Positions 7,935-64,000 of a stretch of 64,000 nucleotides of DNA are shown here, piece by piece. The position numbers and the translations under genes were made by a program. The stretch's first letter is position 1; the number at the start of each line of letters is the position of its first letter. Location of the stretch: positions 64,001 to 128,000 of IMG/VR virus record IMGVR_UViG_3300021514_000002; one strand, 5' to 3'. This DNA comes from a virus. Its lineage: Duplodnaviria > Caudoviricetes. The notes beneath the pieces were generated by a model. It searched no databases. It was not told the DNA's origin and worked only from the letters and a program-made list of their open reading frames with translations.

Positions 7935-8020
7935 TGGTGGGGCCGCAGGGATTCGAACCCTGAATGCGTATTCCGCGCCGGATTAAAAGTCCGGTATCCT
8001 AGCCGTTAGATGACAGCCCC
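7935..8020 (-). tRNA. tRNA-Lys(TTT) with long variable arm
   Basis: GGGGCTG/CGGCCCC-A-CCA; CCGGA-CT TTT AA-TCCGG; 15-nt variable region with GCG-GAATA-CGC hairpin. Confidence 0.9.
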
Positions 8021-13638: not shown

Positions 13639-14802
13639 CTACGAAAGGCTAACCTTCCGTAGGACTTCTTTGCGTAAATCTTCGATAGCTTCGCCGATTT
13701 GTTTACCTTCCAATCTTTCCTTTTGTCCAGTTGTCAACATCTCAAACTCAACAACAATTCCTGCTTTAAACATCTTCAAGAATTTAAAGGCAATTGAATG
13801 AATAAAATGGTTATCAAAAATAATCAACGTAGTTGCTGTTTTATGAAACGTAGTAGGCAATTTCCATGCATGGACTTTGTCTAATACTTTAATAAAACCT
13901 TCCGCAGTATCAAAATCATTAGAATGATCCAAAATATCATTAATCATAGTGCAAGACATTTTTAATGCATTTTTAACAGATCTTGGAGCCTTCAATCGTT
14001 CAAGCATGTTTAATACTTGTTCAGTATTGGAGCCAGCAGCAAGAATTACCATTCGGTCAATAAAATCACTGAACAGTAAGACAGCCCTGTCTAGTGTTTC
14101 GTTGGTTTGAATTGGTAATTTGTTTTCATCAAACAATTCTGGAAACAATACATCAAGGGCATTAACATCATGTAGAACCATAAAAAACTGCATAGGAAAA
14201 TCTTCCATCACTGCTTTTTCTAATTCAGCGAAAACACGTTCTGGGGTTAATTCATCCAATTCACCAGACTTTGTTAGTTGTGCCATCAATTTGAGCGTAT
14301 CAGTAGAAACACTAAAATTGTATCGTGCTGCAAATCTTGCCACGCGAAGAACACGTACTGGATCTTCTGCAAACGCATCACTAACATGCCGAAGCAGACC
14401 GCTTTCTAAATCCTGCATCCCATTAAATGGATCAATAACAAAATGTGTACTTCGTGTCTCTTGGAATTTTTCCCAATTGTCACGGTTTACCGCCATTGAA
14501 TTGACAGTCAAATCCCGACGGAACAAGTCATCTCTCAATGTTACAGAAGGGTCAAAGTCGGTTTCAAAGCCATGGTAGCCAGAACCAATTTTCCGTTCGG
14601 TACGCGCCAGTGCAAATTCTTGACCTTTTTCGTCAAGGAAAACAGGAAAATCAGCGCCTACTTGTTGAAAGCCGTCAGCAAGCATTTCTTCTGGTGTTGA
14701 ACCAACAACAACAAAATCCATATCCTTAACTGGCCGACCGAGTAAGGTATCCCTGACGGCACCGCCGACTACGAAAGTTTCTGTGTGAGTGTGAGTTGTC
14801 AT
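13639..14802 (-). CDS. cca: tRNA nucleotidyltransferase (CCA-adding enzyme, class II)
   Basis: [39 protein letters not shown]. Confidence 0.93.
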
Positions 14803-46681: not shown

Positions 46682-47350
46682 ATGTTATCATATTTGAAAA
46701 AGAAACTCGGCATGGAAAAGGAAGTTCCTGCCGCCGAACGGTTTTATTCACCACTAAGGATTGGTTTGCATAGTACTATTGATATGTCTACTGTTGATTG
46801 GTTAATGGCGCAAGAAGGATTGAACAAATCCATGAAGCTTCCCGTACCAACATTTACAATTCTTGCAATCGGTGAATCAGATGTTGATGGTGATACAATA
46901 TACAACATCTACATGATCGATCAAGCCGATGAAGAGTTTATATTACAATTATTTTGTGTAACAAAATCTGGTACAATGAATGTTGTTGAAGCCACTTTGT
47001 TTAAACAAGTTGTAAATATAGTTCCATTGACTGAAAGTGATTGGTCTGAAAACATGGATGCAATTGGATTCAATACTATCGAATTGGATGACAATACATA
47101 CAATAGATTGTGGTCAGAAGATTATGATGGTAAAATTGATTTAATTGACTTTAATGAGAAAGTTGTTGAATCTGATAAGATAACAAGTTATACTAACCAC
47201 TACATGCTGTACAGCAGAAAGTTCATTGGTATTACTGGTACAGAAGAAACAGAAATGCTGCTCGCTGGTGTTGAAGAAACAGACGAAACAGCTGAAATCA
47301 CGATGATGTTGGGACTACCTGTTCCATTGTCAAATATTAATATACAATAA
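46682..47350 (+). CDS. YjfK/DUF2491-like protein
   Basis: SPLRIGLHS N-terminus and LG.PVPLSNI C-terminus match my recollection of E. coli YjfK. Confidence 0.65.
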   Translation: MLSYLKKKLGMEKEVPAAERFYSPLRIGLHSTIDMSTVDWLMAQEGLNKSMKLPVPTFTILAIGESDVDGDTIYNIYMIDQADEEFILQLFCVTKSGTMNVVEATLFKQVVNIVPLTESDWSENMDAIGFNTIELDDNTYNRLWSEDYDGKIDLIDFNEKVVESDKITSYTNHYMLYSRKFIGITGTEETEMLLAGVEETDETAEITMMLGLPVPLSNINIQ

Positions 47351-47362
47351 AGGATACAAATT

Positions 47363-48118
47363 ATGTTAGGTAAATTTTTTAAACATTACGGTAAAAGTAA
47401 GATCCAACAGGGAATCCAATCATTAAATGATGCTATTGTATCATTTGATCCAGAAGGCGCTACAAGCGCAGCCATTGCTGAAATGGAAGAAAATTTTGAT
47501 TCTATTAATAAAGAATTTTCTAAAGCTAAACAAGAATGGGCACGTGAACAGAAAGAAGCAGATGAAATTGAAAAGCTTCGTGACCAACGCATGGCTGCAG
47601 CAGAACATATTTCTGGTCAATTAGAAGCCAGTCCAGACAATGCACAATTAGATGCTGCATTGACGCAATTGCTTGATTCGCTGGAAGAAATGGCCGACGA
47701 TATTACGCGCGAAGTTGAAGAAGCTGTTGACGCTAAAGAAGTTATGGATGAACTGGATTTAACTGTTAAGATGTATGCTGATAAGTTGAAGTCTGCACGT
47801 TCTGATATGAAGAAAGCAGCTAATTCAATGAAGAAAGCTCAACGTCAAGAAGAACGCGCTGAAGAAAAAGCCGCGCGTGCTGCACAACAAGCAGGTATTA
47901 CAAGTTCTGCTAATGGTTTATCATCCGCACTTGAATCTATGAACCGTCAAGCACAAGAAGCACAAGCCAATGCCGATGCCGCAAAACGCAAGGCTCAACT
48001 TTTAGGTAAGTCAGAAGTTGAAGAAAACGATGCTATTGCCGCAGCCATGGCCGCTGTTTCAGGCGAAGCACCAAAGCCAACGTCTGCAAAAGATCGTCTT
48101 GCTGCGCTTCGTAAGTAA
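47363..48118 (+). CDS. PspA/IM30-like coiled-coil protein
   Basis: Long Ala/Glu-rich coiled coil; DPEG...I.EME N-terminus; ends RLAALRK. Confidence 0.72.
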   Translation: MLGKFFKHYGKSKIQQGIQSLNDAIVSFDPEGATSAAIAEMEENFDSINKEFSKAKQEWAREQKEADEIEKLRDQRMAAAEHISGQLEASPDNAQLDAALTQLLDSLEEMADDITREVEEAVDAKEVMDELDLTVKMYADKLKSARSDMKKAANSMKKAQRQEERAEEKAARAAQQAGITSSANGLSSALESMNRQAQEAQANADAAKRKAQLLGKSEVEENDAIAAAMAAVSGEAPKPTSAKDRLAALRK

Positions 48119-48130
48119 GTAAAAACTGAT

Positions 48131-48158
48131 AAAAGGGAGGCACTATGCCTCCCTTTTT
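48131..48158 (+). terminator. Intrinsic terminator
   Basis: aaaagggaggca-cta-tgcctcccttttt. Confidence 0.85.
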
Positions 48159-48174
48159 ATTTCGAGGAAATAGA

Positions 48175-48465
48175 ATGGAACACTTTAATAAATTATCACC
48201 CAGTGAAGCAGAACGTCTTGCTATATTGCTTGAAGAAATGGGCGAAGCACAACAGGCCATTGGAAAGATATTACGCCATGGTTATGAAAGCACACATCCT
48301 GATGGTGGCGAAACCAATCGTGAAATGCTTGAAAGAGAATTAGGCGATGTTCACTACGCCGTTGTTAATCTTTATGTATGTAATGACATAAACGAAGTCG
48401 CTGTGCATGAAGCAGCTCGGGAAAAATCTGAAAACATAACGAAATATTTACATCACAATGAATAA
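48175..48465 (+). CDS. MazG-like nucleotide pyrophosphohydrolase
   Basis: LLEEMGEAQQAIGKILRHG...ERELGDV. Confidence 0.7.
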   Translation: MEHFNKLSPSEAERLAILLEEMGEAQQAIGKILRHGYESTHPDGGETNREMLERELGDVHYAVVNLYVCNDINEVAVHEAAREKSENITKYLHHNE

Positions 48466-48874
48466 AATTACAACCACTATCAAAGCTGCCTTCGCTAAAT
48501 ATTTTTATCCAATTACAGCTACGGTAAATTGGTTCAAAAGATTAAATTATATCGTTAATCATTACGATCAAGACAAGATTGAAATGATAGGTAAATTAGA
48601 ATATGCTGAATCAAACGCCGCTGAAGCAGTACAATTAATTAAAGAACGTACTAATATTCATGCTGATGTTGATGTTAAGTTAAATACTCCAACACAAGTT
48701 ATTGCCATTGGTCGTTACAGGAATCATGACTATATTCAGGTATTTTCTATACATGCTAATGACTTTAGTGAATTAGTACTTCGGCTAAAAAGCATGGAAA
48801 AATATGGCAATCTTCAACGCATTGATTCGCCTATTGAATTACGTGGTGTTTTTGAACGGGATGTTAGTTGGTAA
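48458..48874 (+). CDS. Hypothetical protein
   Basis: ORF coupled to the preceding gene. Confidence 0.65.
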   Translation: MNKITTTIKAAFAKYFYPITATVNWFKRLNYIVNHYDQDKIEMIGKLEYAESNAAEAVQLIKERTNIHADVDVKLNTPTQVIAIGRYRNHDYIQVFSIHANDFSELVLRLKSMEKYGNLQRIDSPIELRGVFERDVSW

Positions 48875-49788
48875 ATTATAACTTACTTGTTAATTTATCA
48901 ATAGTTGCTTGTTGTTCTTCAATCTTTCCTTCTTGCTGCAATAGAACGCTATTGACTTCAACTAATAATTTAATCGTCGGCGTATTAAGCTCTGAACTAA
49001 GCCCCATTATATGATTAGTTATTCTTTCTGAAATTTTATTAAGACTCATAAAGTTTAGAAACCTCATAACACCATTGACACTGACAAACTTCACCATCAT
49101 TATCATAATAAGCGCCTGATTTATCACCACATTGTGGACAGTTAGCAACGTCAAGTAAAGTTTTAGCTTCGTTAAGTTGTTCTGTTTGTTGCAGTAATGC
49201 TTTCTTTACTTCTTCATAGAAACCAACGTCTGCAAACTTACGTGTTGCCGTCGCGTATTCAATAAACGCATCCAAACCATTTAATACTTTATTCATTGTA
49301 TATTCTCCATAAATTTTATTCTTCTAAAGCCCATAGTAATCTGATTATTTCAACGGCTGCTTTACTTCTAGCGGTTGATTTACTAGGACACCCGCAATCG
49401 CATGGTTCCCATAAGAATTCATCCTTATTATCTTGTACAATTTCTACAATAGCTTTATGTATTTTAAGCTCTTGTTTAAGTTTAATATTTTCTAGTTCAA
49501 GATCTGATGGTTCAAAGTAATCATCAAATGTTGGAATTTTTGGCCATTTCTGTTTATCATTTTCCATATTATAACACATCCCAGAAAGTAATCCACCAAG
49601 CTGTTCGTTGGCTTCCTTTCTTAAAATGTATTAATCCATCTTTATAATACATTTGCATTGGTGGTTCAAATGGCCGTTTACTGTTTGCTATTTTTACAGC
49701 AACAACAACTTTATTAATTAAGGTTAATATTACCATCAAAGACATGAAAATTGCAAATATTGCAATAACATTTTCACCATTTAATATT

Positions 49789-50238
49789 TTATCCATTATA
49801 TATCTCCCATGCTGCAGTAATAATCGCATCTTCTCTGGAGATTTTTGATATTACACATCCTGATACATTATCCAAGACATTAGCTTTATAATTAACGACC
49901 CATGTATTGTCCATAGGGAGTTCATTCTGTTCAATTTCAATATATTTAAATAAATCAAATAACTTTAATAATTGATCATTGTTTGTATAGGGATCTGGCA
50001 TTGATTCAAGGCAATAAGTGTAATGACCAAAAACTCTTGGTTCATTTGTCTCAACAAATACATCTATATCGCATACACATTCTCTTAGATACACAGGCCA
50101 AAGAATCGTGCGTTTATCTTCTTTCTGCCATGGATCAATTACTATTTGCCCAGATTCAAAATCTGGCGAACATAATGCAGTACCAAGTATTTGTAATCCT
50201 TGTGCTGTATAAATTGTTTTAAGTTTATCTATTTGCAT
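49789..50238 (-). CDS. Hypothetical protein
   Basis: ORF in a run of small minus-strand genes. Confidence 0.6.
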   Translation of the reverse strand: MQIDKLKTIYTAQGLQILGTALCSPDFESGQIVIDPWQKEDKRTILWPVYLRECVCDIDVFVETNEPRVFGHYTYCLESMPDPYTNNDQLLKLFDLFKYIEIEQNELPMDNTWVVNYKANVLDNVSGCVISKISREDAIITAAWEIYNG

Positions 50239-51056
50239 ATTGTTATCTAATAGTTTAATTTTTCCGCAAGAGTTTTAGCATATTCAATTTGTTGTTCAAT
50301 GTCTTCAAAGTCACCATTAACGTAAAGACGGACATCGTGCGTGAAGTCTTCTGATCCAATAAAAACTTCACCGCGCTCAGAACCAACTTCCCATTCTTTT
50401 GTTTCATTTCTTTTCTTATTCATTTTTAACCCTTGCTATTTTCTCAAACATTTCTAGGCCACAATTTTGGCACAGGTCAACTTCAACTGTATTCATATCA
50501 CCCCATACTGAACTGTAACCACCTGTAAAGTCTATATGAATAAACTCTTGTATATTCATAATATCATCATATACTTTTTTACATTTATCACATTCGATGG
50601 AAGTTATTTGTTTATATGTAGTTGGAACATCTTTAGTGTGTATCATAATGTTTAATTCCCCTCTTCCATATCTAACATTATTCTAATGTAAATATATACA
50701 ATTACTACTACCCCTGTTGGCACTATAGATATAAGTACAAGTGACACCGGCATCTCATTCCACATATGAAGAACTACCCCATCGGCTCTACTAAAGTATA
50801 ATAGTGTTGTTAAAAATACACCAAGACATAATATGATAAGGATATCAACGCGTTTCATCTTCAATCCTGAAGTTTGCACGACCATTTTCTACAATATCAT
50901 CGACGAAATCTAAACACATGTCAATTTCTTCTGGTGTGGCATCATATAAATCATCTGAATATCTAATCACCTCACGATCAATATATCCTTTATCAACATA
51001 ATGTAGTGCTATCTTTTTTAATTCTGCTTCGGTCATAATTATTATTCCTAAAAAGA

Positions 51057-51144
51057 TGACAAGATGTCGGTGGCTTGGTGGTAATCCTGCAAGTACAAGC
51101 CCGTTAATGCTTCCATCTTGTGCTAGGATGCCAACATCTTGTCA
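51057..51144 (-). ncRNA. Rod-like hairpin RNA
   Basis: 14-bp terminal stem TGACAAGATGTTGG/CCGACATCTTGTCA plus inner stems TCCT/AGGA and AGCACAAG/CTTGTACT; strand uncertain. Confidence 0.5.
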
Positions 51145-51148
51145 AAAC

Positions 51149-51272
51149 TGGCGGACGGGTAGGACGTTACCCCTACTGCTCTCTTTCTACTGAATCCGAT
51201 TCCCCGCTTAAGTTCAGGGTTCGCGCGATGGACTTGCCCTCGCTGCATGTCTAACTTTCCACACTGCCGTCC
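51149..51272 (-). ncRNA. Oversized tRNA-like RNA ending in CCA
   Basis: GGACGG...GTAGG-GGTAACGT-CCTAC-CCGTCC-G-CCA. Confidence 0.65.
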
Positions 51273-51771
51273 ATAAAATATTTTATATCTTACCATACTA
51301 TTAACTACCGTGTCAACTACAATAGTTCTTGACAATTAGGTTATGATTTGATATAGTAAGGCTGTGAAATAAACATTGAATTAAAACGTAAAGGTCTTAA
51401 ACAACATATGCATATTAACACTATACTAACAGATAGAACTAATCTTAACAATTATTTGTTCATATCTTTAATCGTGATGAATATTTTTGATTTTATTACA
51501 ACCTATATAGGTATTATGTATTTTGGTGCAAGAGAAGTGAATCTTGTTATGGCTACAGCCATTGAACTAGTCGGCACAGTATGGGCAATCTTTGGGGGTG
51601 AAGGCATTGGTTTTTGGATATATCTATTATCATTATTACCATACAGTCAAAGGAAAGACGTTATGGGTAACTCCAAGAACAACGTGGTTCCTTGTTGGAT
51701 TTAATATAATGTTTTTAGGTGTGGTTATCAATAACCTTGTTCGTATTTCGATGAAAATGTAAGGAAATAAA

Positions 51772-52023
51772 ATGGATAACGGAAAATATATTGTATTAAA
51801 CAGTAATAACATCATCATCTTTGATGCTACTTTGTCGCATAAAGAAGTTGCGGCAGGTTTTACTAATAGTGAAGTTACATCTGCAGGTTTCATTGTGACT
51901 GATGTTGACAGCGATGGCGAAGTGCGTGTTCAATGTTTCGGTAAAAGTGTTACGTTAGGTGGGATACCTTCTGATCCAGAAAACGATACCAGCCTTGCTA
52001 AGTATGCAATTGGTCGGTATTAA
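51772..52023 (+). CDS. Hypothetical protein
   Basis: AAGGA RBS; clean ORF. Confidence 0.65.
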   Translation: MDNGKYIVLNSNNIIIFDATLSHKEVAAGFTNSEVTSAGFIVTDVDSDGEVRVQCFGKSVTLGGIPSDPENDTSLAKYAIGRY

Positions 52024-52334
52024 TACAATCCTTCGCTAAATAATTCGGTGTCACTACCATTACGATCAGCATTAAAAGGTTGGCCCGATTCTTTAACAAC
52101 TTGAAGGGCTTCTTCCCTTGTCAAAAACTCACCAAATTGATTAATGAATTCTTGTTCCCAACGTTCATTTTTTCTTAATGGTTTGAATTCTTCATCCATG
52201 TGTTGAATTTGGTTGCGCATAACACTATCAAAATGTCTTGCACCGCAAAGAATCACGTCATTAAAACGATTCGCAGCACATACAACAATTTGTTGTGGTT
52301 TTATAAGCCCATTATCTGTCCAGTAATCACCCAT
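52020..52334 (-). CDS. Conserved-type phage hypothetical protein
   Basis: IVVCAANR...GARHFD...FINQFGEFLTREEA...LFSEGLY. Confidence 0.7.
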   Translation of the reverse strand: MGDYWTDNGLIKPQQIVVCAANRFNDVILCGARHFDSVMRNQIQHMDEEFKPLRKNERWEQEFINQFGEFLTREEALQVVKESGQPFNADRNGSDTELFSEGLY

Positions 52335-53589
52335 TAAATTTGTTTCATCGTTTTAGTTGACCATGCCTGTGCTAAAGCATTTACCTCATTTCCTAAAATC
52401 CATTGACCTGTTTCCACAAAAAACCAAGTACTGAAAAGTAAGGTTTTGCGTATTTCTACGGTTCGTTTCTTTTTCCACCAGAATATACCAGTTTCAATGT
52501 CGATTGTAGCATGGAATACTTCATTACCAACATTATTCTTTGTAATGGCTGTTAATTCAAAATTACTAATTTTCATACTGCTTCCCTACTACCAAGTTAA
52601 TGTGCTAATCCAAATCTTAGCATCTTGGCCTGTGATTTCCTTAAATGTTTCTTTTAATCTATCAATTTCCCCTTGATTCCATTGAAATGGATTGGGCTTG
52701 TCTGTGCCACTAGTAGCATAGAAAAAACCTATAACAGCAAGTGGATCGTTACGACCTTCGTGATAAGGTGCACACATTTGTAATTCTTCATCTTCAACCA
52801 ATTCGTCTACGTCTACGTTTTTAAAATCCATACGATGCAATCCTACCATGATGGCAGCTTGGTAATCAACTTTCATTATTTAATTCCTGTACTTTGTTTT
52901 AGTAATTCGTATGCCAATGTTTCCAATGCAGTCCATTCTTCCATTCCAACCTCAACTAATAATCCTTTAAGTTCAAGATCATTAATGGCTTGCCTGATTA
53001 AGGTTGGATCAAAGACACCAGATAGTTCTGATGGTGTTTCACTTTTTAACACTGTTCGCATTTGTTTTGTTATTTCGGCCATGCTTATTTTCCTTAACCC
53101 TGTTGATACCCGGTGATACTATAAGTAGGCAATATCCAATAATTCCATTCAAATGCTTCGTATTTACCTTTACGGTCGCGACGCCGGAACCAAACAGTTG
53201 CAGTTTCATCGGGTTCCATTGTTGGAAATATTACTTTAATGCCACCTGCGCGCAGTTCTAATACTTCTGCTTCTTCACCGCGACACAATTTACCATCTTG
53301 GAATACCCAGATTATATCACCTTTCTTCATGTTATTACCTATTAAGTTAATAAGTCAATGGATATTTCATCCGCGACTTCTGGTACGTGTTGCTCTTCTT
53401 CAAATTCAATTTGTGAAGTATTACATGCACCTGTTGATTCCAAGAAACGTTTGATGGTATAATCGTCCCCGCGAAAGCGGACACGATTGCCCACTGTTAC
53501 TATTTTACCTGTACTATCATAATGCATTGTATTATCCTTATGTTTCTTTGAAAGTGTAGCTTAACACAACTTAAATCATAAATCAACCC

Positions 53590-53618
53590 TTGACTTTGCA
53601 ACCTAATTTTATTATAGT
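53590..53618 (+). promoter_or_regulatory. sigma70-type promoter
   Basis: TTGACT-N17-TATAGT. Confidence 0.7.
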
Positions 53619-53648
53619 GTGTACCTTAAATAAAAAAGAGGAAATAAC

Positions 53649-53900
53649 ATGGGATTTTGGAAATCATTAGGATATTCAATATCACTAATTATAGGTTTAC
53701 TATTAGTGGTATTTGACTATTTTTTAGTAACGCCAATGAAGGCAAGCACGGCGGTGCTACAACTTGAAGATTCAGCCGCCTTATATGCTATTGGTGAAAA
53801 GGCTGCTACGTCAAATGTAAGTACTGTCATCTTTGTGGTTGGCTTACTATTGATTACAGGAAGTGTATATAAACTATTAACAGGAAAAATCAAAAAATGA
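53649..53900 (+). CDS. Two-helix membrane protein coupled to the SPFH gene
   Basis: Two hydrophobic segments; ATGA overlap. Confidence 0.7.
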   Translation: MGFWKSLGYSISLIIGLLLVVFDYFLVTPMKASTAVLQLEDSAALYAIGEKAATSNVSTVIFVVGLLLITGSVYKLLTGKIKK

Positions 53901-54916
53901 AAACATCAACAAAACTATTATCAATGCTGGTACCAATCGCCCTATTAACAGGTTGTCTTGGACCAGCAGAACTTCCAGTTACGGAAGAGATTAAACCAAA
54001 CGAAACGGCTTTCGTGATACCCTTAGAAGGTGCGTCAAAGTCTGGCCAAGGTAAATTTGATTCAGTAGATTTCTTACAAGAAAAGAAAGTTGCTGCCAAA
54101 CGCATCTATATTCCACTTAAAAAGATTTCCACTGGTAGAATGTGGTGGAGTTATAGATGGATTCCAACAGTACGTGTTATTAAAGTTGACCGCGCCCCTG
54201 TTACTTTAGTATGGGAAGACGATAACGCGATTAAAGTAGAATCAAGAGATTCTATTGGTTTTGGTGTAGGTCTAAATATTACCGCCATGGTTAAAGAATC
54301 TGATACTGCCAAATTCTTATATTACTATCCGTCAGGTGATCTTGATATCGTTCTTGCTAATATTGTTCGTTCTAAATCTACCGAATTATTAGGTAATAAG
54401 TTCGCTAAATATGACCTTGAAGGTGGTGAGATTACAGATCCTGAAACAGGCAAAAAAGTACTTGTTGAAGGTGCACGTCAAAAGAAAGGTGAAGTTGTCT
54501 CCGAAACTAAGGTAGCGTTAATTGAATACTTTGTTGAAACTGGTGTTACTATTTCTACTTTTGGTTTAGTTGGTGGACTGTCTTATGAAGATAATGAAAT
54601 TCAGATAGCAATTAATAAAAACTTCAAGTCTGAATTGGATATTAAGAACAAGGCGAATATTCGTCTGGGACAGGAAGAAACTAATGCCAATTTGATTGCT
54701 ATTGCCACCGCTGAAAAAGAGGCGGCTAACCAGTTTAAACTTGCCGCAGAGGCGCGTACTAAACAGGTTCGTTTAGAAATTGAACGTATGGCAGCAGAAG
54801 CTGATCTTGCTCGCGCTAAACGATGGGATGGTAAGCTACCAGATGATATGTTGATGTTACCAGCAGGCGCAGATCCTGGATTCATATTGAATTTGAAAGG
54901 CAAACCTGCCAAGTAA
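53897..54916 (+). CDS. SPFH/Band 7-like lipoprotein
   Basis: Lipobox LLTGC; C-terminal AE-rich coiled coil and WDGKLP. Confidence 0.8.
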   Translation: MKTSTKLLSMLVPIALLTGCLGPAELPVTEEIKPNETAFVIPLEGASKSGQGKFDSVDFLQEKKVAAKRIYIPLKKISTGRMWWSYRWIPTVRVIKVDRAPVTLVWEDDNAIKVESRDSIGFGVGLNITAMVKESDTAKFLYYYPSGDLDIVLANIVRSKSTELLGNKFAKYDLEGGEITDPETGKKVLVEGARQKKGEVVSETKVALIEYFVETGVTISTFGLVGGLSYEDNEIQIAINKNFKSELDIKNKANIRLGQEETNANLIAIATAEKEAANQFKLAAEARTKQVRLEIERMAAEADLARAKRWDGKLPDDMLMLPAGADPGFILNLKGKPAK

Positions 54917-54935
54917 TCTTATCCTTAATAACCAT

Positions 54936-54968
54936 AAAAAAAGGGTGCCTTTAAAGGCACCCTTTTTT
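54936..54968 (+). terminator. Intrinsic terminator
   Basis: Perfect palindrome gggtgccttt/aaaggcaccc flanked by A and T runs. Confidence 0.88.
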
Positions 54969-55029
54969 ATTGCTTGACAATTAGGTTACAATTTGTTATA
55001 GTGTATACATCTTAACAAATGAGGTAAAA

Positions 55030-55440
55030 ATGATGCAATTAACTATTATCGGATACCGTCCTAATAACAACGAATATGCTTGTGGTTGTCATGTAGGATC
55101 TTCTGACTCAGATTTTCAAATCAATTACCCAAAAAGTAAAGTTTCTGCAATTAAAGATCTTGCAAATATTTTATTTGATGACATGTGCGGTGACTGTGAT
55201 GATGCGCCATATGAAATTACTATTTTAATTGATGGCATCGAACCTTCTAACAAAGAACAAATGGATATTGTTGAAAATGTTATGGAACAAGCTAAAATTC
55301 GTGCAAATGAATTATTTACCGAACATCAACGAAAAAATGATGAATATAACCGACGCATTAAGGAAGAAGAAGCTAAGAAACAGCGCGAACGGGATCTTAA
55401 ACAGTTAGCTGAACTTAAAGCTAAATTAGAGGTTGAATAA
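55030..55440 (+). CDS. Hypothetical protein
   Basis: GAGG RBS; promoter upstream. Confidence 0.7.
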   Translation: MMQLTIIGYRPNNNEYACGCHVGSSDSDFQINYPKSKVSAIKDLANILFDDMCGDCDDAPYEITILIDGIEPSNKEQMDIVENVMEQAKIRANELFTEHQRKNDEYNRRIKEEEAKKQRERDLKQLAELKAKLEVE

Positions 55441-56021
55441 TGGGCAAAATTAAATCCACTGAACATACAACAAAACGAATCATAGCCATGGTAGAATCTG
55501 GGGAGTATGATCCTGCTGTCATTCAACATATGATCGATTCTATTATAGTGAATCGGGATCAGCGCATTCAACAATTGAAAAAGAAAATACAACCAAAAGA
55601 ATTTAATATGTCCATAAAGATTGTCACTGGAGCATTGCGAGCATGTATTAATGATCATGGTCCAATTTCATCAAAGTGGATTGGTTCCGCAGCTAAGCGA
55701 ATTTATGGCAATTGTCAGCAAGCTGTCAATGAATCCATTCCCGTGGTAAGAATAGATAACCCTGCGGTTAGTGTTGTCTACGATCAGACTACTACCCATA
55801 AATTGACAGTGGCACGAGATGGTAATATCAGGATTAAAATAGCTAAAGGGTCTTCTGATGCGGTAGGTGATTATATTATTGACGCATTAAAAAAGGTAGC
55901 AGAAAAAGCCCTTGAGTTAGACATGGGTACGTTACGTGGTAGTGTTGATAAGAGCGATTTACATAATAAAATCACTCTTTACACTAATTCAAAAAAAGAA
56001 TATGTTACGTTCACTTATTAA
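55440..56021 (+). CDS. Hypothetical protein
   Basis: Coupled ORF. Confidence 0.65.
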   Translation: MGKIKSTEHTTKRIIAMVESGEYDPAVIQHMIDSIIVNRDQRIQQLKKKIQPKEFNMSIKIVTGALRACINDHGPISSKWIGSAAKRIYGNCQQAVNESIPVVRIDNPAVSVVYDQTTTHKLTVARDGNIRIKIAKGSSDAVGDYIIDALKKVAEKALELDMGTLRGSVDKSDLHNKITLYTNSKKEYVTFTY

Positions 56022-56084
56022 ATCCTTGACTTTGTAACCTAATTCGGGCATAATATACACATCTTAACGATAAAGGAAAAGACA

Positions 56085-56738
56085 ATGTTTGATGAAAAAG
56101 AAGAGAAACATGAAAGCTTTGGTATGATGGGATTTTCCCGTGTTCAATGTTCTGGTGATGGTCAGGTTCTACATGGTTCTGATTTGAAACATAACACCAT
56201 AATCCGCATGACTCTTTCCCATGGTACAAAGAAACGTGGTCTGTCACATGACTGGTATCATGCAGAAGACACAATCGTAGAAGTTGAAATGTCACAGAAT
56301 CAATTTTCTGAAATGATTACTTCTATGAACATGGGTTCTGGTATTCCTGTGACCTTGAACTATACAGAAAAGGATGGTCGTTTAGAATCCCCTGAATTTG
56401 TTTCTGTTGTAGAAATCCATGAAAATGAATTTAAACAACAGACCAAAGATACTGTCAAGGATATGGAAGACTTGCTTACTGCCATGAAAGATCTCTTATC
56501 AGGTTCTGGTACTGTCAAGAAAGCAGACCGTGAAACCATGATTAATCAGGCAGAAAAAGTTGTCCGTGAAATCGGTTCTAACATGCCTTATATGGAAAAA
56601 TGTTTCGCTGAATCCATGGACAAAGTTGTTACTGATGCCAAGGGTAATATCGAAGCATTCTATCAACATCGTGTTATTGCCGCAGGACTTGAAGCCTTAG
56701 AAAATGGCAATGAACCTAAGTTAATCGAAAAAAACTAA
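56085..56738 (+). CDS. Conserved-type phage hypothetical protein
   Basis: AAGGA RBS; TTGACT promoter upstream. Confidence 0.75.
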   Translation: MFDEKEEKHESFGMMGFSRVQCSGDGQVLHGSDLKHNTIIRMTLSHGTKKRGLSHDWYHAEDTIVEVEMSQNQFSEMITSMNMGSGIPVTLNYTEKDGRLESPEFVSVVEIHENEFKQQTKDTVKDMEDLLTAMKDLLSGSGTVKKADRETMINQAEKVVREIGSNMPYMEKCFAESMDKVVTDAKGNIEAFYQHRVIAAGLEALENGNEPKLIEKN

Positions 56739-57084
56739 CATGTATAGTATATTATCTTATATCGCCATCTTCATAGTAATAACGATAGGTATATTACTAC
56801 GTCGCAGGAAAACCCGCGTGCGCAAAATTATAGTTGCATCTTTCAATGAAATACTATATAATAGATCTAGCGTAAAATTGTTTCTTCAAGGTAAACTCAA
56901 ACAACCCGATGGAAATATCACATTGGATGAGTTCTATGAACAATGTAAGAAGAATAATATTGAAGAATATATGCCAATGGATAACGAAAACAAGAAATAT
57001 GTTAATAGTATACTATATCAACATCTTACTGGAAAGATGTTAATTAAAAAAGAATAATCTAAAAAATAATAATTAATAATTTAA

Positions 57085-58722
<1,638 letters not shown>

Positions 58723-59042
58723 CACAGGTATAAACGGGAATAGACAATGGACACGATGACAACAAATGCAGCCAAGATTTTATTGGCAGCAAATTACAAA
58801 GGTGCGGAATACTTAGGTATGGATGGTTATATGAACCCGTGCATCTACGTAGGCCGCGAGCCAATTGTCATTGAAGCTTTATACGATACTGCCGAAGGCA
58901 ACGAACAGGCTGATGTTATTGAAAATTGGTTAAAAACTAACTGTTATCAACTATGGTCAGATATGATGCCAGACAGCGGTACTCGTATTGAATGGCTTAA
59001 ACTTTGTTTGGAACAGTTAAAATTTACAGTGCATGATTAATT

Positions 59043-59324
59043 ATGAATAACGTTAACGCCCAAAACTACTGCGATGATCCACCTGATATCGAAGCTTGGT
59101 TTGATAAAGGCATAGAACAAGGTGCAACGCACATGTTTGTGGTGTGTGAAAACGTAAACATTAGTCCTGTTTATACAATACCCCCTAACGACATTAGTCC
59201 TGTCTATGTAATACCCCCTACCGATTTTCATCGTATTGAACAACTATGTTGTATTGCTGGACATATTATGAATCTATATGACCTTTCACGACCATTTAAA
59301 GAACAGAAAGGAAATTATGAATAG
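59043..59324 (+). CDS. Hypothetical protein with an internal 11-aa duplication
   Basis: NISPVYTIPPN / DISPVYVIPPT. Confidence 0.6.
   Translation: MNNVNAQNYCDDPPDIEAWFDKGIEQGATHMFVVCENVNISPVYTIPPNDISPVYVIPPTDFHRIEQLCCIAGHIMNLYDLSRPFKEQKGNYE
59158..59223 (+). repeat. 33-bp tandem duplication
   Basis: acattagtcctgtttatacaataccccctaacg / acattagtcctgtctatgtaataccccctaccg. Confidence 0.9.
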
Positions 59325-59572
59325 TATTGAAGATTGTTTAAATTGTTTGGTTGAGACTTTTAGTGAATGCCACGATGTCAGGTGTGTTCCCAGTGTACTT
59401 ATAGGTGGTGGGTTTGTATATCGTGTAACTGTTACTAATTTGCCCAACGCAAATGTTTATTCTTGTAGAGATACGTCATATTTAAAAGCGTTCATTGGTG
59501 TCATTGGTAAAATTAAATTAGATGTAGACATGTCCACATGTCGGACTTCAAAAGATGTTTAAATAAATTTAC

Positions 59573-59711
59573 GGACGGAGAAGCGGGGTAAATGCGGACA
59601 TGGAAACTAAGCTGACTTGGAATACCCGCCATAATTGTGCATGTCGCGGCCATTTGAGCGTACAATCTTAGGCAAGGTTAGCGATTGGGTTCGAATCCCA
59701 CCCGTCCACCA
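59573..59711 (+). ncRNA. Oversized tRNA-like RNA with canonical T loop and CCA
   Basis: GGACGG...TGGG-TTCGAAT-CCCA-C-CCGTCC-A-CCA; no standard anticodon arm. Confidence 0.75.
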
Positions 59712-59837
59712 TTTTAAATAGAGTGATGTATATGAATACAGATCAAACCATAATATTAGCAATCTTCTTATCATTTGTTCTTTTTGCAGGCAATCCTGAT
59801 TTAATGGACGTGTTTATACAATGGATAATAAAAAATC

Positions 59838-60227
59838 ATGATTAAACGAATCATTCCTGAACACGATCTTTTGGCATTAGAAAATGCAAGGGTTAAATTA
59901 TATAAATTGTTTCCTGATTTGGATCCTGCTACTATTATAGAATTACATAGCATAACTGCCCCAATGTGGAAAGTTGCCAACAAGAAATATCCTATAGTAA
60001 CGGATAGTGATTCTTCTGATAATGAAGAAAAAATTCGTACTTATGAAGCGTTTTTGCATAAATTGCAGATGTTTGTCCAAGTGACACTGGATAAGAAATC
60101 GGTTAGCAAATTAATATCAAATGCTTGTGATTGGAGTTATGCTCATCGTGTAGGCAATGGTCAATATTCAGACAGAGAACAACAAGCTATTATTGACAAA
60201 GTATTTAAGAAATTAACCGATACTTAA
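59838..60227 (+). CDS. Hypothetical protein
   Basis: Clean ORF. Confidence 0.65.
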   Translation: MIKRIIPEHDLLALENARVKLYKLFPDLDPATIIELHSITAPMWKVANKKYPIVTDSDSSDNEEKIRTYEAFLHKLQMFVQVTLDKKSVSKLISNACDWSYAHRVGNGQYSDREQQAIIDKVFKKLTDT

Positions 60228-60431
60228 CCATATGCCCATAACCAATCAAACTGCAGTAATTCAAGCACTTGCTAATATAAGATTAGAATCCCTTATAGTA
60301 TCAGACGATATATTAAGATTGATTGAAAAGGGGATGACTGATGCCGTTATTGATACTACATATATTTTAAATTATCTGCGCAGTTAATGGGCGATTATGT
60401 ATAAATAATCAATAACAATGAGGAATTGATT

Positions 60432-60674
60432 ATGAAAGTATCTGATATCTTAAAAGAAGCTGTTATTGATATTACTCCAGAGCTTAAACAACGACAAGAT
60501 GACCGCGAAGAACAGGCACGCGCTAAACGTTCTAAAGACCGTCTGGCCAAGCAGCAAGCCCGTAGAAAGGACAAAAAAGATCCAGATGAATTGGGTACGA
60601 AACGCCGTTCTAAACTAAGTCAGGTAGACCAGTTAAGGGATATTGCCAGACAACTTCGTAACCAAAATACTTAA
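60432..60674 (+). CDS. Basic late protein (possible head-internal)
   Basis: TATAAATA at 60400-60407; N-terminal KVSDILKEA; GAGG RBS. Confidence 0.65.
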   Translation: MKVSDILKEAVIDITPELKQRQDDREEQARAKRSKDRLAKQQARRKDKKDPDELGTKRRSKLSQVDQLRDIARQLRNQNT

Positions 60675-60878
60675 TCTACCACCATCATTGCATCTTCAAA
60701 ACTGTCCGTTTTGTCTTCTGGAAGCATAATATATTCTATTGATAATTGTTGTTTGCCAGTGCCGCAACTAAAATCCACAAAGGTCGCTGAACAGATAAAG
60801 CAGCTCTTATCATTAATAATATTACTAAGATGCTGTTTCATTTTTGTTTGATTTTCGGCAGTTGCATCGTTTGAATTT

Positions 60879-61334
60879 TTATTCGCCATTCTTCAAGCCC
60901 TTGATTTTATCAGATAAATCCTTTGAATATAGGTATACCCACTCGCTTTCATTTAATGGATGATTTGTCATTGCAATCCAATCGTCTTGCATCACTACCA
61001 GAACTGCTTCAATTGCCGCGTTCCATGCTTCGGGGGTTGTGGAGTTTGGCGCGCCACTGTATTTTGATTTCCACCATTCTTTAAATTTTAGTTCACTTTG
61101 GTCATCCAGTGGCTTGTCTATTAATATTTCTATCATCTTTCTTTTCCATTCTGTTTTTAATGGGCGTTCGTTTTCAAGGATATCATTACAAAAATTAGAT
61201 AATAAAACAAAACATTCACTTTGTTGTTCTGGTGGTTTGTATGTTGCATTTGTAATATGCCAATCAATATCATCCTGCCAATGTTCTGGAATAACTTCTT
61301 TAATTTGTCGTGCTACTTCTGCTGCATGTCTCAT
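60879..61334 (-). CDS. Hypothetical protein
   Basis: ORF in a minus-strand run. Confidence 0.6.
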   Translation of the reverse strand: MRHAAEVARQIKEVIPEHWQDDIDWHITNATYKPPEQQSECFVLLSNFCNDILENERPLKTEWKRKMIEILIDKPLDDQSELKFKEWWKSKYSGAPNSTTPEAWNAAIEAVLVVMQDDWIAMTNHPLNESEWVYLYSKDLSDKIKGLKNGE

Positions 61335-61394
61335 ATTTTATTCTCACTTATTTTATTGCGATAGTGTTATGAAAGTTTATAACAACGATTTTCA

Positions 61395-61853
61395 TTATTC
61401 GTCTTTCAATTCTGGGTTTTCATATATATTGCCAATAATTTCAAAATCAAAGTCAGGTATTAAACCACACCCAAAATTTATAAAGTTGAATATTGGAATA
61501 CCTTGTGGTTGTATTGCACTTCTATCTTGTGCTATACTAACATCAACATTTCTATAAACACACCACGATCCGTTAAAATTTCCCATTCTAACTTCACCCG
61601 TCCATGTTTCTGGAATTTCTTTATTATGTGATTTATTGAGCACTGTAATAATATCACCTGCATAGATTGGTGTCTCAACCTTGGTTTCTAATCCAGTGCA
61701 CAACATTAAAATAAATTCATCGCTTTCGCGCATGACATTATTAGCATAATCAAGAACATCAATACGACCATTTAAGTTAAGTTTATAACCATCCGCAAGT
61801 TGATAAATCATCATATTAAAACGTTTATCCCATGCCCTACATTTAATATTCAT
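61395..61853 (-). CDS. YopX family protein
   Basis: IKCRAWDK...CTGL...IYAGDI...EIIGNIYENPEL. Confidence 0.85.
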   Translation of the reverse strand: MNIKCRAWDKRFNMMIYQLADGYKLNLNGRIDVLDYANNVMRESDEFILMLCTGLETKVETPIYAGDIITVLNKSHNKEIPETWTGEVRMGNFNGSWCVYRNVDVSIAQDRSAIQPQGIPIFNFINFGCGLIPDFDFEIIGNIYENPELKDE

Positions 61854-62220
61854 TTTTTAATCTTCTATTACTTGAATACATCTAATTTGACCTGGTGGTA
61901 TCCATACTCTACCATCGGAACCATTGGTAAATTTAAGACCAAAATTCACCCAAAATCCATCTTTTAAATCCTCAAAATTATCAGCAGTATAATCATCAAT
62001 AGGCAAAATATTAGGGTTAATAGACGCTTTGTAATGCTTGCTCATTCTTCTTTCTCCATTAAATCATAAGGGCAACCGTTTTGCATACAAACATTTTTGT
62101 CCTTTAAAGACCTATCACCACAATGGGCACATCTAACCCCCTCCACTTTATTTAAAGCCCATGTCGCATCTTCATAAGGTTCTTCTTTTTCGTGGTGTGT
62201 ATCTTGTTCGGGATATTCGC

Positions 62221-62634
62221 TCATGTTTTACTCTTTATTGGGACATCATAGGTGTGTGGATATAAATAATTTCGATTTTCGGGAGGATATCCTGTGGTCA
62301 TATGGATAGAATTATCTGTAACATTCTTATCTCTTTTTTGTAAGGCGTTAATTTCACACTCGTATCTTCTTAGCCGAACTTCCGCATAATTAATCAATGT
62401 TAATAAATCGGTTTCATCATCAAATTCCGTTAAGGTTTTTATTAAACGAAGCTTTGCCGCATTTAAGTTTGGCAATAATATTTCACTAACATTACTCACC
62501 GTTTTATATGTCTCAATAAGACTATCCCGTTTTTTGATTTCGTTTAATAAAATAGAAATCAATGATGTTTCTTGGTTCCAATCAGCTACGTCTATGCTTT
62601 CTAGATATTTCGCAGCTTCATCTATTACGCTCAT
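62221..62634 (-). CDS. Hypothetical protein
   Basis: ORF in a coupled minus-strand run. Confidence 0.6.
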   Translation of the reverse strand: MSVIDEAAKYLESIDVADWNQETSLISILLNEIKKRDSLIETYKTVSNVSEILLPNLNAAKLRLIKTLTEFDDETDLLTLINYAEVRLRRYECEINALQKRDKNVTDNSIHMTTGYPPENRNYLYPHTYDVPIKSKT

Positions 62635-63594
62635 ATATCACCTTTTCTTGTAGATCTTCAATAGTCGCGTCGGAAAACCCAGTTTCCCACCCTTTACCAA
62701 AAATAAAAAATTTACGTTCAACCTGAAGCACTAATACCGGCGTTTTACAAAATCTATTTTCGATTCTATATTGCGTCTTACCTGTTAATATAGATTTCAT
62801 CCTATTGGTTTCCCAAAAAACGGCTGTTCCTCAATTTGATGAACAATACGATCATGTTTAACTTTAGCATCAAACACATGACCGCAACAATTACCAATAG
62901 TTCTCTCGCCTATGCCGTAATACGGTGTTTTTGCTTCTTTCCCACATTCGTCACAATAGACTCTGGTTACTGGTTCTGGTTGTGTTACTCGCATATATCA
63001 CCTTCGTTTGATATTTTCTTAAATTTCGTTGTTACGTTTTTTCTACTTCCTGAATAGTAATAACTCGACTGTCATATACATACTTTTCCACTGATTCGCC
63101 GTCTTGTAATGTTGTTACTTCTGTATCGGCATTGTCTTCGGTAATTACAATCTTTACCTCGTTGTTGTTGGCACAACAGGCGTCAATCGTTACACTGGTT
63201 GTCATCTTCTGATTCCTTTAAAGGTTGGTTAATATTTAGAATGATACTTCTGTTCGTTTTGTTTCCCATGTCACCATGTCACCATCTGTTTTAGAGATGG
63301 TACCATTGTCTGATTCATTATTGATTAATGATCCAACTTCTTCAATTAAGGCAGGGGTACAGGACAAGTCCAGAACTTCAATTGTAATGGTTACTACTGT
63401 TTTTGTGGCTTTCATACTATTCTCACGTATTAGGTTTATTAATTAAACAGGTTAACATAACGCCCCTGATTTGTCAATATTACTGCCGAGAGTTTTTCGG
63501 TTTACGTGGATGCTTTCGTCGAATTCCATGATAAATATCCACGCAGATACGCAGGCCAGCCAAGCCAACCAATAACATGATAATATAAGGCCAC

Positions 63595-63915
63595 TTATCG
63601 ACCATACTTTTCTTCAATTGCGTTTTTTACTGCATCACGAAGTGTATTGCCTTCGCCTTCTATATAATAATTTCCAGTTGGATCATCTGTCATTAATATG
63701 TAGACAATGCATGTTTTTTCTTCTTTATCGCGTTCAACTTCCATATTAAAATGGTCAAATACTTCCAATAAAGTATCGGCATTGTCTAATGTGAAGTCTG
63801 TGTATACCCAGTTACCACCATTAGGTCTAGTTCCAATTTGAAATACGCCATCTTTCCAATGGTAGATCATATATCCCATGTCTTCTGCAAGATATTTAAG
63901 ATATCTATCGTTCAT
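63595..63915 (-). CDS. Hypothetical protein
   Basis: Clean ORF near the window end. Confidence 0.6.
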   Translation of the reverse strand: MNDRYLKYLAEDMGYMIYHWKDGVFQIGTRPNGGNWVYTDFTLDNADTLLEVFDHFNMEVERDKEEKTCIVYILMTDDPTGNYYIEGEGNTLRDAVKNAIEEKYGR

Positions 63916-64000
63916 AATTGATTGGCCAATAGCGCAGTATCTTCTTCTTTGGATTCAAGACCAAGGGATTCGCTTTCACCATAACAATTTCCCGCTGCAT

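What the first reader, a model, noticed from the sequence alone, without database searches (positions are those of the whole stretch)
51149..51272. Second oversized tRNA-like RNA with the identical GGACGG/CCGTCC acceptor stem
Seen on the minus strand (124 nt): GGACGG-[D-like GTGT/ACAT arm; GCGAGGG-CAAG-TCCATCGC hairpin; CTGAA/TTCAG arm]-GTAGG-GGTAACGT-CCTAC-CCGTCC-G-CCA. It has the same 6-bp acceptor, the same 11-nt distance from T-loop to discriminator and the same CCA end as 59573-59711, about 8 kb away on the other strand. The interior is different and the T loop is non-canonical. Inference: a small family of acceptor-stem mimics recognised by one partner (an aaRS, CCA enzyme, toxin or phage protein).
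Basis: partly seen in the sequence, partly recalled or inferred. Interest (0 to 1): 0.75.

Follow-up and report, generated by a model that had tools for sequence, protein, structure and literature searches.

The report
Non-decoding tRNA-like RNA gene in phage
A 363-kb deep-sea-vent phage carries a real 124-base gene, with its own promoter and stop signal, for a folded RNA that has the ends of a tRNA but cannot read codons; it resembles in design the small RNAs of phage T4, whose function is still unknown.

Summary
At 51149-51272 (minus) a 124-nt stretch starts GGACGG, ends CCGTCC-G-CCA, and has a hairpin stacked on the 3' acceptor strand. The same 6-bp stem and NCCA end occur only once more in the 363.5-kb genome, at 59573-59711.

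It is most likely a real RNA gene:
- It lies in a 372-bp gap between genes and is a GC island (58% against about 33%).
- A sigma-70-type promoter precedes it and a long hairpin plus U-run follows it.
- Contigs of an 89-94% identical relative in two marine metagenome runs keep both promoter hexamers but change five spacer bases.
- They keep the acceptor and T-like stems.
- They change one hairpin pair on both sides (A-U to U-A) and turn two G-U pairs into G-C.
- They shift the frame of the overlapping 70-aa ORF.

It is not a tRNA, a tmRNA or any Rfam family. It is not a homologue of T4 rnaC or rnaD, since covariance models of both miss it. Its interior is unrelated to that of the 139-nt RNA.

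Best reading: a non-decoding tRNA-like stable RNA, matured like a tRNA, that acts through its acceptor end. The partner is unknown.

This scan has already reported oversized tRNA-like RNAs in phages from at least 33 other genomes.

The parts
51311..51316 (-). -35 hexamer TTGACA of the promoter of the RNA
   Evidence: Promoter scan, 10 of 12 matches with a TG extension. Unchanged in the marine relative, while 5 bases of the 18-nt spacer differ.
51287..51292 (-). -10 hexamer TAAGAT preceded by TGG (extended -10). It ends 14 nt before G1, so the expected leader is about 6-10 nt
   Evidence: Unchanged in the relative.
51149..51272 (-). The 124-nt tRNA-like RNA ('RNA A'), from G1 at 51272 to the CCA end at 51149
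51267..51272 (-). 5' strand of the acceptor stem, GGACGG (p1-6), with U at position -1
   Evidence: Pair probability 0.83-1.0. Unchanged in the relative.
51245..51264 (-). Arm P2 (p9-13/24-28) with a 10-nt loop, in the position of a D arm
   Evidence: MFE fold, pair probability about 0.56. U10 to C in the relative turns U-G27 into C-G.
51225..51243 (-). Hairpin P3 (p30-36/41-48, A44 bulged). Its loop is 4 nt (5 nt in the relative), too short for an anticodon loop
   Evidence: In the relative A33-U45 becomes U-A and G36-U41 becomes G-C. G30 to U is the one change that breaks a pair as far as resolved.
51197..51223 (-). Arm P4 (p50-52/74-76 and p54-58/67-71) with the 8-nt loop AACUUAAG, which holds the palindrome CUUAAG
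   Evidence: Pair probability 0.75-1.0. Not tested by variation, because p47-71 lies in the unlisted end zone of both contigs.
51177..51196 (-). Purine-rich linker of 20 nt (p77-96), single-stranded in the model
   Evidence: The relative has one substitution, one deletion and one insertion here.
51159..51176 (-). T-like hairpin (p97-114): 5-6 bp with the non-canonical loop GGUAACGU, stacked directly on the acceptor stem
   Evidence: pair probability 0.8-0.92. In the relative the stem is unchanged and loop base G103 becomes A.
51149..51158 (-). 3' strand of the acceptor stem CCGTCC (p115-120), discriminator G121, then CCA
   Evidence: In the relative the discriminator is A, as in the 139-nt RNA.
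51050..51144 (-). Long hairpin (14-bp base stem 51131-51144 / 51057-51070) followed by UCUUUUU: a terminator-like or attenuator-like element. It ends 13 nt before the start codon of the next gene
   Evidence: z = -3.57, and none of 200 shuffles folds as well. In the relative A51067 to G keeps the pair as U-G.
50845..51036 (-). First gene downstream (63 aa, no known family). It has no good promoter of its own, so it probably depends on read-through
59573..59711 (+). The 139-nt tRNA-like RNA ('RNA B') with the same acceptor stem, a canonical T arm and an ACCA end

Best explanation
RNA A is a separate gene for a small, structured, non-decoding tRNA-like RNA.

Shown:
- Host-type RNA polymerase has a good sigma-70-type promoter here (TTGACA, 18 nt, TGG-TAAGAT) ending 14 nt upstream of G1.
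- The transcript can fold into a five-way junction: a 6-bp acceptor stem closed by the two ends, three interior hairpins, a purine-rich linker, and a T-like hairpin stacked on the acceptor.
- No interior loop could serve as an anticodon loop.
- A long hairpin plus U-run lies 4 nt behind the CCA.

Inferred from established tRNA biology:
- The short leader is removed by RNase P. U at -1, G at +1 and an RCCA 3' end are the features bacterial RNase P prefers, and RNase P is known to process other non-tRNA substrates.
- The 3' trailer is trimmed back to the encoded CCA. Host CCA-adding enzyme, or the phage's own enzyme of that family, can repair that end.

Inferred, lower odds (about 0.35): the mature RNA works through its acceptor/T minihelix and CCA end. 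It would be a mimic read by a protein that binds tRNA ends, the same protein that reads the 139-nt RNA with the identical acceptor. It could serve as a decoy, a competitor or a carrier.
For: Not chance: the paired ends occur twice in the genome and in no shuffle.

Gene grammar:
- It sits in a 372-bp intergenic gap.
- It has a promoter with 10 of 12 matches and a TG extension.
- It forms a GC island of 58% in DNA of about 33%.
- The hairpin plus U-run behind it has z = -3.57.
- Most of the phage's tRNA genes also encode CCA.

A relative 89-94% identical occurs in two marine metagenome runs of one study:
- Both promoter hexamers are unchanged, while 5 of the 18 spacer bases differ.
- The acceptor and T-like stems are unchanged.
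- A33-U45 becomes U-A, and two G-U pairs become G-C.
- The other changes fall in loops, the linker and the discriminator.
- Random placement of nine substitutions gives at least one compensatory pair and at most one broken pair in 1.2% of trials.
- Beyond 51371 the relative's contig no longer resembles the window, so the RNA and its promoter are kept as a block.

Not coding: a +1 insertion in the relative shifts the frame of the 70-aa ORF. That ORF has no Pfam family.

Possible partner for the CCA end: the phage has a gene of the CCA-adding enzyme family PF01743.

RNase P processes non-tRNA substrates such as 4.5S RNA, tmRNA and phage P1/P7 C4 RNA (PMC11143913).
Against: - No RNA data exist. 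No listed sequencing run is RNA, so the ends and even expression are not shown.
- Only one relative lineage is known, from short contigs of one study. Differences within about 30 nt of the contig piece ends are not listed, so p47-71 is unresolved.
- The RNA is not clearly more conserved than its immediate flanks.
- The folding z-score of the 124 nt alone is weak (-1.25).
- The T-like loop lacks the T-loop consensus and the acceptor has 6 rather than 7 bp. Recognition by RNase P, CCA enzyme or a synthetase is assumed, not shown.
- No homologue was found in XacN1, RsoM2USA, Xoo-sp13, CM1 or five IMG/VR relatives.
Confidence: 0.6

Rival explanations
1. It is a cis-acting leader of the minus-strand operon. 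On this reading the tRNA-like fold and the long hairpin are the 5' untranslated region of the 63-aa gene and the genes behind it. The fold would be a processing signal, where RNase P or RNase E cutting sets the mRNA 5' end and its stability. Alternatively it would be a sensor that sets read-through of the hairpin plus U-run. This does not exclude a stable RNA by-product.
For: The only good promoter for the operon is the one before RNA A. The hairpin plus U-run ends 13 nt before the start codon, next to the Shine-Dalgarno sequence AGGA. The whole 246-nt leader folds with z = -2.3. The same genome has other structured leaders and attenuators (earlier notes, not checked here).
Against: No Rfam riboswitch or leader family matches. 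An exact NCCA after an acceptor stem identical to that of a second RNA, which lies inside another operon, is not needed for a leader. No alternative pairing between the RNA and the hairpin was seen in the folds.
Confidence: 0.2
2. It is a decayed remnant of a tRNA gene, of the tRNA-Lys type seen in XacN1-like phages, that keeps its ends by descent and has no function of its own.
For: Its T stem GTAGG/CCTAC differs from the GTGGG/CCCAC of XacN1-type tRNA-Lys(UUU) by one compensated pair. Its acceptor GGACGG is that tRNA's GGGACGG less one pair. The region is a fast-changing stretch of orphan genes.
Against: A dedicated promoter with conserved hexamers, and a compensatory change plus two G-U to G-C changes in the relative, are not expected of a dead gene. 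The interior of about 90 nt is well folded and GC-rich.
Confidence: 0.1
3. It acts as an antisense regulator of the P1/P7 C4 type: cut out of the operon leader by RNase P, then pairing through its loops with a ribosome-binding site downstream.
For: The layout is the same as for C4: promoter, an RNA with an acceptor-like stem and CCA, then the operon (PMC11143913 lists C4 as an RNase P substrate).
Against: Complementary words of 10-12 nt occur in the genome at the number expected by chance. Duplexes with the eight downstream start regions do not exceed shuffles (z from -1.0 to +1.5).
Confidence: 0.05
4. The 70-aa ORF 51123-51335 is the real product.
For: The frame is open in this genome.
Against: It starts with TTG upstream of the -35 box. 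It has no Pfam family. In the relative a single-base insertion behind 51236 shifts the frame.
Confidence: 0.02

Closest known systems
Phage T4 species 1 RNA (rnaC, 137-139 nt encoded) and its homologues in Tevenvirinae
   Same: It is a phage-encoded small stable RNA whose two ends form a tRNA acceptor stem, with a hairpin arm stacked on the 3' strand and an oversized interior that has no anticodon arm. Its function has been unknown since the 1970s (PMC3014915, PMC9697503). In my alignment of six homologues the acceptor and arms covary.
   Different: There is no homology: the covariance model of rnaC finds neither RNA A nor RNA B, and the alignment z-score is about 0. In addition:
- rnaC has a canonical T loop, a 7-bp acceptor with two U-U mismatches, no encoded CCA and a four-way junction. 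It lies at the end of the tRNA cluster.
- RNA A has a non-canonical loop, a perfect 6-bp acceptor, an encoded CCA, a five-way junction and its own promoter. It lies 43 kb from the nearest tRNA gene.
Phage T4 species 2 RNA (rnaD, 119-120 nt)
   Same: Similar size, an encoded CCA end, no canonical T loop, and unknown function.
   Different: In rnaD the 3' end pairs with an internal segment behind a 5' hairpin, not with the 5' terminus. The rnaD covariance model gives no match on RNA A.
C4 antisense RNA of phages P1 and P7
   Same: It is a small phage RNA with an acceptor-like stem and CCA, released by RNase P from the leader of the operon that follows it (PMC11143913).
   Different: C4 works by loop pairing with sites downstream in the same transcript. 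No such complementarity exists here above chance.
tRNA-Lys(UUU) of the XacN1 / Xoo-sp13 jumbo phages (distant relatives by tail sheath, 50-54% identity)
   Same: The acceptor (GGGACGG/CCGTCCC) and T stem (GTGGG/CCCAC) are nearly those of RNA B. The match is 25 of 26 nt at the 3' end. Those of RNA A differ by one compensated pair in the T stem.
   Different: These are ordinary 76-nt decoding tRNAs. RNA A lacks a D loop with GG, an anticodon loop, the T-loop consensus and the seventh acceptor pair.

Membership tests
tRNA (Rfam RF00005; ARAGORN) | Cloverleaf with a D arm, an anticodon arm with a 7-nt loop, and a T arm with the T-loop consensus | tested here: not met
   No RF00005 match at the gathering score or at E up to 10. 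ARAGORN does not call it even with introns allowed and the threshold lowered to 70-80%. The loops of the interior hairpins are 10, 4 and 8 nt.
tRNA (Rfam RF00005; ARAGORN) | Acceptor stem closed by the 5' and 3' ends, then discriminator and CCA | tested here: met
   There are 6 perfect pairs, then G and CCA. That is 6 bp rather than 7.
tmRNA (RF00023) | G3-U70 pair, canonical T arm, tag reading frame, pseudoknots | tested here: not met
   The third pair is A3-U. There is no RF00023 match on RNA A. ARAGORN's tmRNA mode finds nothing. The phage's tmRNA lies elsewhere, at genome 233835-234219.
T4 species 1 RNA (rnaC) family | Sequence and structure homology to the Tevenvirinae rnaC alignment | tested here: not met
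   Model R1, built from six homologues, was searched over the whole window with filters off. It gave no match at 51149-51272 or 59573-59711 at E up to 10.
T4 species 1 RNA (rnaC) family | Design: acceptor stem from the two ends, an adjacent stacked hairpin, and an oversized interior without an anticodon arm | tested here: met
   This is a likeness of design, not of descent.
T4 species 2 RNA (rnaD) family | Sequence and structure homology to the rnaD alignment | tested here: not met
   Model R2 gave no match on RNA A at E up to 10.
P1/P7 C4-type antisense RNA | Loops complementary to a site in the downstream mRNA | tested here: not met
   Complementary words occur at chance level, and duplex z-scores are not significant.
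P1/P7 C4-type antisense RNA | 5' end made by RNase P | not testable with these tools
   The sequence has U at -1, G at +1 and RCCA at the 3' end. No RNA data are available.
Y RNA / YrlA (RF02553) | The ends form the Ro-binding stem, and the tRNA-like module is distal | tested here: not met
   No Rfam match. Here the ends form the acceptor stem with CCA.

The most novel reading that the evidence does not exclude
RNA A and RNA B are a matched pair of dedicated ligands for one enzyme that reads the unusual 6-bp GGACGG acceptor and the 11-nt T-to-discriminator spacing. They could be decoys that absorb a host defence acting on tRNA 3' ends, such as CCA-tail nucleases of the Cas12a3 kind (PMC12851939) or nucleotidyltransferase toxins. 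Or they could be non-decoding carriers charged with an amino acid for a reaction outside the ribosome.
Probability: 0.15. Interest if true: 0.8.

Novelty: new variant of a known kind. Interest (0 to 1): 0.45.

Why it matters
Phage T4's two small stable RNAs have had no known function for fifty years. Unrelated RNAs of the same design in distant phages suggest that the design itself is selected: tRNA ends around a non-decoding body.

This example is useful for three reasons:
- It has its own host-type promoter and terminator, so it can be expressed and deleted cleanly.
- It comes with a second RNA that shares only the acceptor. This sets up a direct acceptor-swap test of whether the ends are the working part.
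- The phage carries a large set of tRNA-related genes, including 45 tRNAs, a tmRNA and a CCA-enzyme gene. That points to a conflict over tRNA.

Tried and rejected
Homologue searches that found nothing:
- blastn (distant mode) of both RNAs against 50,697 phage records: no match.
- BLAST and covariance model R3 against XacN1, RsoM2USA, Xoo-sp13 and CM1, BLAST alone against Vibrio phage 2.275.O, and both against five IMG/VR relatives: no RNA A homologue. The RNA B matches there are ordinary tRNAs.
- Flanking 63-aa and 98-aa proteins: no relatives in IMG/VR.
- GroEL as an anchor: 80 loci, mostly unrelated, and none holds either RNA.
- The 339-aa neighbour as an anchor: two relatives. Only that gene and its small neighbour are shared, and no tRNA-like element lies nearby.
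- Pattern GTAGG-N8-CCTACCCGTCCNCCA: 0 matches in metagenome contigs and 0 in viral contigs.
- The two-anchor pattern in bacterial genomes: 25 matches, all in GC-rich DNA. One has a five-pair hairpin before the 3' strand, but none looks like RNA A, so I read them as chance.

Expression: no RNA holder is listed among public runs, so expression could not be examined. Run X1, the probable source sample, laid no contig.

Interactions and recognition:
- RNA A with RNA B duplex: z = -1.6, not significant.
- Antisense targets: none above chance.
- A decoy for PARIS AriB was considered and set aside. AriB reads the anticodon loop and D loop (bioRxiv 10.1101/2025.02.04.636281), which RNA A lacks.
- Charging by SerRS was considered because of G1-C, G2-C, A3-U, discriminator G and an extra arm. 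It is weakened because the relative has discriminator A.

Not run: a search for homologues of the 70-aa ORF, because the frameshift in the relative already argues against coding.

Full report
**What the window is.** The window is bases 64001-128000 of one 363,531-bp contig with 36% GC. The contig has RIIA, a T4-type DNA polymerase and a tail sheath. By sheath protein its nearest named relatives are the jumbo phages RsoM2USA, XacN1, Xoo-sp13 and Stenotrophomonas CM1/RAS14, at 46-58% identity. ARAGORN finds 45 tRNAs and a permuted tmRNA. The one run that holds all the sampled words of the stretch, and so the probable source sample, is a hydrothermal vent metagenome.

**The observation.**
- The pattern GGACGG-N(90-120)-CCGTCCNCCA matches once in the window and in none of 100 shuffles.
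- In the whole genome CCGTCCNCCA occurs twice. Each copy has GGACGG upstream, 108 or 123 nt away. These are the 124-nt element (RNA A) and the 139-nt element at 59573-59711 (RNA B).
- In both, 5 nt of T stem plus 6 nt of acceptor separate the T loop from the discriminator.

**Gene grammar.**
- RNA A lies in a 372-bp gap between a minus-strand gene (50845-51036) and a plus-strand gene (51408-51704).
- A promoter-like site lies on the minus strand: TTGACA, 18 nt, TAAGAT, with a TG extension, 10 of 12 matches. It ends 14 nt before G1. A second promoter points the other way.
- GC reaches 58% over 51150-51249, in DNA of about 33%.
- Four bases behind the CCA begins a long hairpin with a 14-bp base stem, followed by UCUUUUU. 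It folds with z = -3.57, and none of 200 shuffles does as well.
- The unit is therefore promoter, short leader, RNA with encoded CCA, then a terminator-like hairpin. That is the layout of a stand-alone tRNA gene. Most of the phage's tRNA genes also encode CCA.

**Structure.** The minimum-energy fold and the ensemble give:
- the acceptor stem, p1-6/115-120;
- P2, p9-13/24-28, with a 10-nt loop;
- P3, p30-36/41-48, with a 4-nt loop;
- P4, p50-52/74-76 plus p54-58/67-71, with an 8-nt loop;
- a 20-nt purine-rich linker;
- a T-like hairpin, p97-114, whose loop GGUAACGU lacks the T-loop consensus.

The folding z-score of the RNA alone is weak (-1.25), so energy is not the main argument.

**A relative.** Two marine metagenome runs of one study hold short contigs of a related sequence. 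One covers 51005-51231, with 12 differences and 2 gaps. The other covers 51196-51371, with 19 differences and 1 gap. Its 18 overhanging letters match the other contig's variant, so both belong to one lineage. Mapped onto the RNA:
- U10 to C makes U-G27 into C-G.
- A33 to U and U45 to A change a P3 pair on both sides.
- U41 to C makes G36-U into G-C.
- G30 to U breaks one end pair, as far as resolved.
- The other changes are in the P3 loop, the linker, the T-like loop (G103 to A) and the discriminator (G121 to A, which gives ACCA as in RNA B).
- The acceptor and T-like stems are unchanged.
- Upstream, both promoter hexamers are unchanged, while five of the 18 spacer bases differ.
- Beyond 51371 the contig runs on for 166 nt unlike the window.

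When nine substitutions are placed at random, at least one compensatory pair together with at most one broken pair occurs in 1.2% of trials.

Caveats:
- There is one lineage and one study.
- The structure was derived from the window's own sequence.
- The tool appears not to list differences within about 30 nt of the ends of a laid piece, so p47-71, including most of P4 and the partner of G30, is unresolved.
- Overall identity of the RNA (about 90%) is not higher than that of its near flanks.

**Not coding.** The 70-aa ORF 51123-51335 starts with TTG upstream of the -35 box and has no Pfam family. In the relative a one-base insertion behind 51236 shifts its frame.

**What it is not.**
- No Rfam family matches, at the gathering scores or at E up to 10.
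- ARAGORN never calls it, even with introns allowed and lowered thresholds.
- It lacks G3-U70 and a tag frame, so it is not a tmRNA.
- I built covariance models of T4 species 1 RNA (six Tevenvirinae sequences, with covarying acceptor and arms) and of species 2 RNA. Neither matches RNA A or RNA B.
- A model of RNA A finds only itself in this genome, not RNA B, and nothing in nine related phage records.
- The interiors of RNA A and RNA B do not align (z = 0.4).

**Origin of the ends.** The last 26 nt of RNA B are 96% identical to the 3' end of tRNA-Lys(UUU) of XacN1 and Xoo-sp13. Those tRNAs begin GGGACGG and have the T stem GTGGG/CCCAC. RNA B looks like that tRNA's top half with the outermost acceptor pair removed. 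The T stem of RNA A (GTAGG/CCTAC) differs by one compensated pair. A common tRNA-Lys-like ancestor for the ends of both RNAs is therefore plausible, but it is an inference.

**How it most likely works.**
- Shown: a promoter, a fold supported by one compensatory change, a tRNA-type end and a terminator-like hairpin.
- Inferred from established knowledge: RNase P removes the leader. The sequence has U at -1, G at +1 and RCCA at the 3' end, and RNase P handles 4.5S RNA, tmRNA and phage C4 RNA as well as tRNAs (PMC11143913). The trailer is then trimmed to the CCA.
- Context: the phage has a gene of the CCA-enzyme family.
- Inferred with lower odds: the RNA acts through its acceptor/T minihelix as a mimic for a protein that binds tRNA ends, shared with RNA B.
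- Not supported: an antisense role, since complementary words are at chance level.
- Unlikely: a decoy for PARIS AriB, which reads the anticodon and D loops.
- Main rival: a leader or processing role for the downstream operon. The 63-aa gene has no good promoter of its own. This is compatible with a stable RNA product.

**Comparison and novelty.** The closest known things are T4's species 1 and 2 RNAs, whose function remains unknown (PMC3014915, PMC9697503). The likeness is one of design, not of descent. Earlier reports of this scan describe oversized tRNA-like RNAs in phages from at least 33 other genomes and also name T4 rnaC as the nearest comparison. None resembles RNA A in sequence. I rate RNA A a new variant of a known kind. 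It is a real gene with fair confidence, its function is open, and the pair with a shared acceptor is a useful handle for experiments.

Noticed in passing
window 5180-5270, 5470-5557, 7935-8020 (all minus): tRNA-Asn(GUU) (91 nt), tRNA-Thr(UGU) (88 nt) and tRNA-Lys(UUU) (86 nt) are type-I tRNAs that carry a long extra arm. These are the three tRNAs reported as targets of the PARIS nuclease AriB (bioRxiv 10.1101/2025.02.04.636281). At positions 36-41 they read UAAUCC (Lys, Thr) or UAAACA (Asn), not the cleaved E. coli tRNA-Lys site UAAUCA. In tRNA-Lys those are the positions whose change blocks cleavage. An 87-nt tRNA-Lys(UUU) of the same build is kept in the IMG/VR relative G001 at 145242-145328. 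tRNA-Trp (87 nt), tRNA-Met (90 nt) and tRNA-Glu (85 nt) outside the window are also over-long.
   Followed up: partly
window 6960-7035 (minus): A second tRNA-Lys(UUU) has a non-canonical T loop (AUCGUGG) and an acceptor that begins GGAC, like RNA A and RNA B.
   Followed up: no
window 59573-59711 (plus): The 3' 26 nt of RNA B are 96% identical to tRNA-Lys(UUU) of phages XacN1 and Xoo-sp13. It starts 10 nt after the stop codon of the upstream gene and has no promoter of its own, unlike RNA A.
   Followed up: partly
G000:C1 2252-2336, 16908-16990, 21010-21083, 21090-21169 (minus; outside the window): Four more tRNA-shaped genes of 74-85 nt have a canonical T arm, a 6-7-bp acceptor and an encoded CCA, yet ARAGORN does not call them.
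   Followed up: no
window 51329-51357 and 54974-55002 (plus): The same promoter box, TTGACA, 17 nt, TATAGT with a TG extension, occurs at both places. Two further short contigs of the marine relative match only 51311-51358. The box therefore looks like a repeated early-promoter element kept in the relative.
   Followed up: no
window about 14389-14775 (minus), a 401-aa frame: A phage gene of the CCA-adding enzyme / poly(A) polymerase family PF01743, 73.9 bits.
   Followed up: partly
G000:C1 252271-252344 and 252952-253023 (minus; outside the window): Two tRNAs with anticodon CUA, amber-reading, which ARAGORN labels Pyl.
   Followed up: no
window 57097-58722 (plus): A phage GroEL that is 77% identical to GroL in two Salmonella records held in the phage collection and 61% identical to that of Vibrio phage 2.275.O. 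The 105-aa gene just upstream has no Pfam match.
   Followed up: no
window 47000-64000 compared with IMG/VR relative G001: Of all frames of 55 aa or more beyond 40000, only the 339-aa gene (53897-54916), its small neighbour and one 62-aa frame have a counterpart in the 250-kb relative. The region around both RNAs is a fast-changing stretch of orphan genes.
   Followed up: partly
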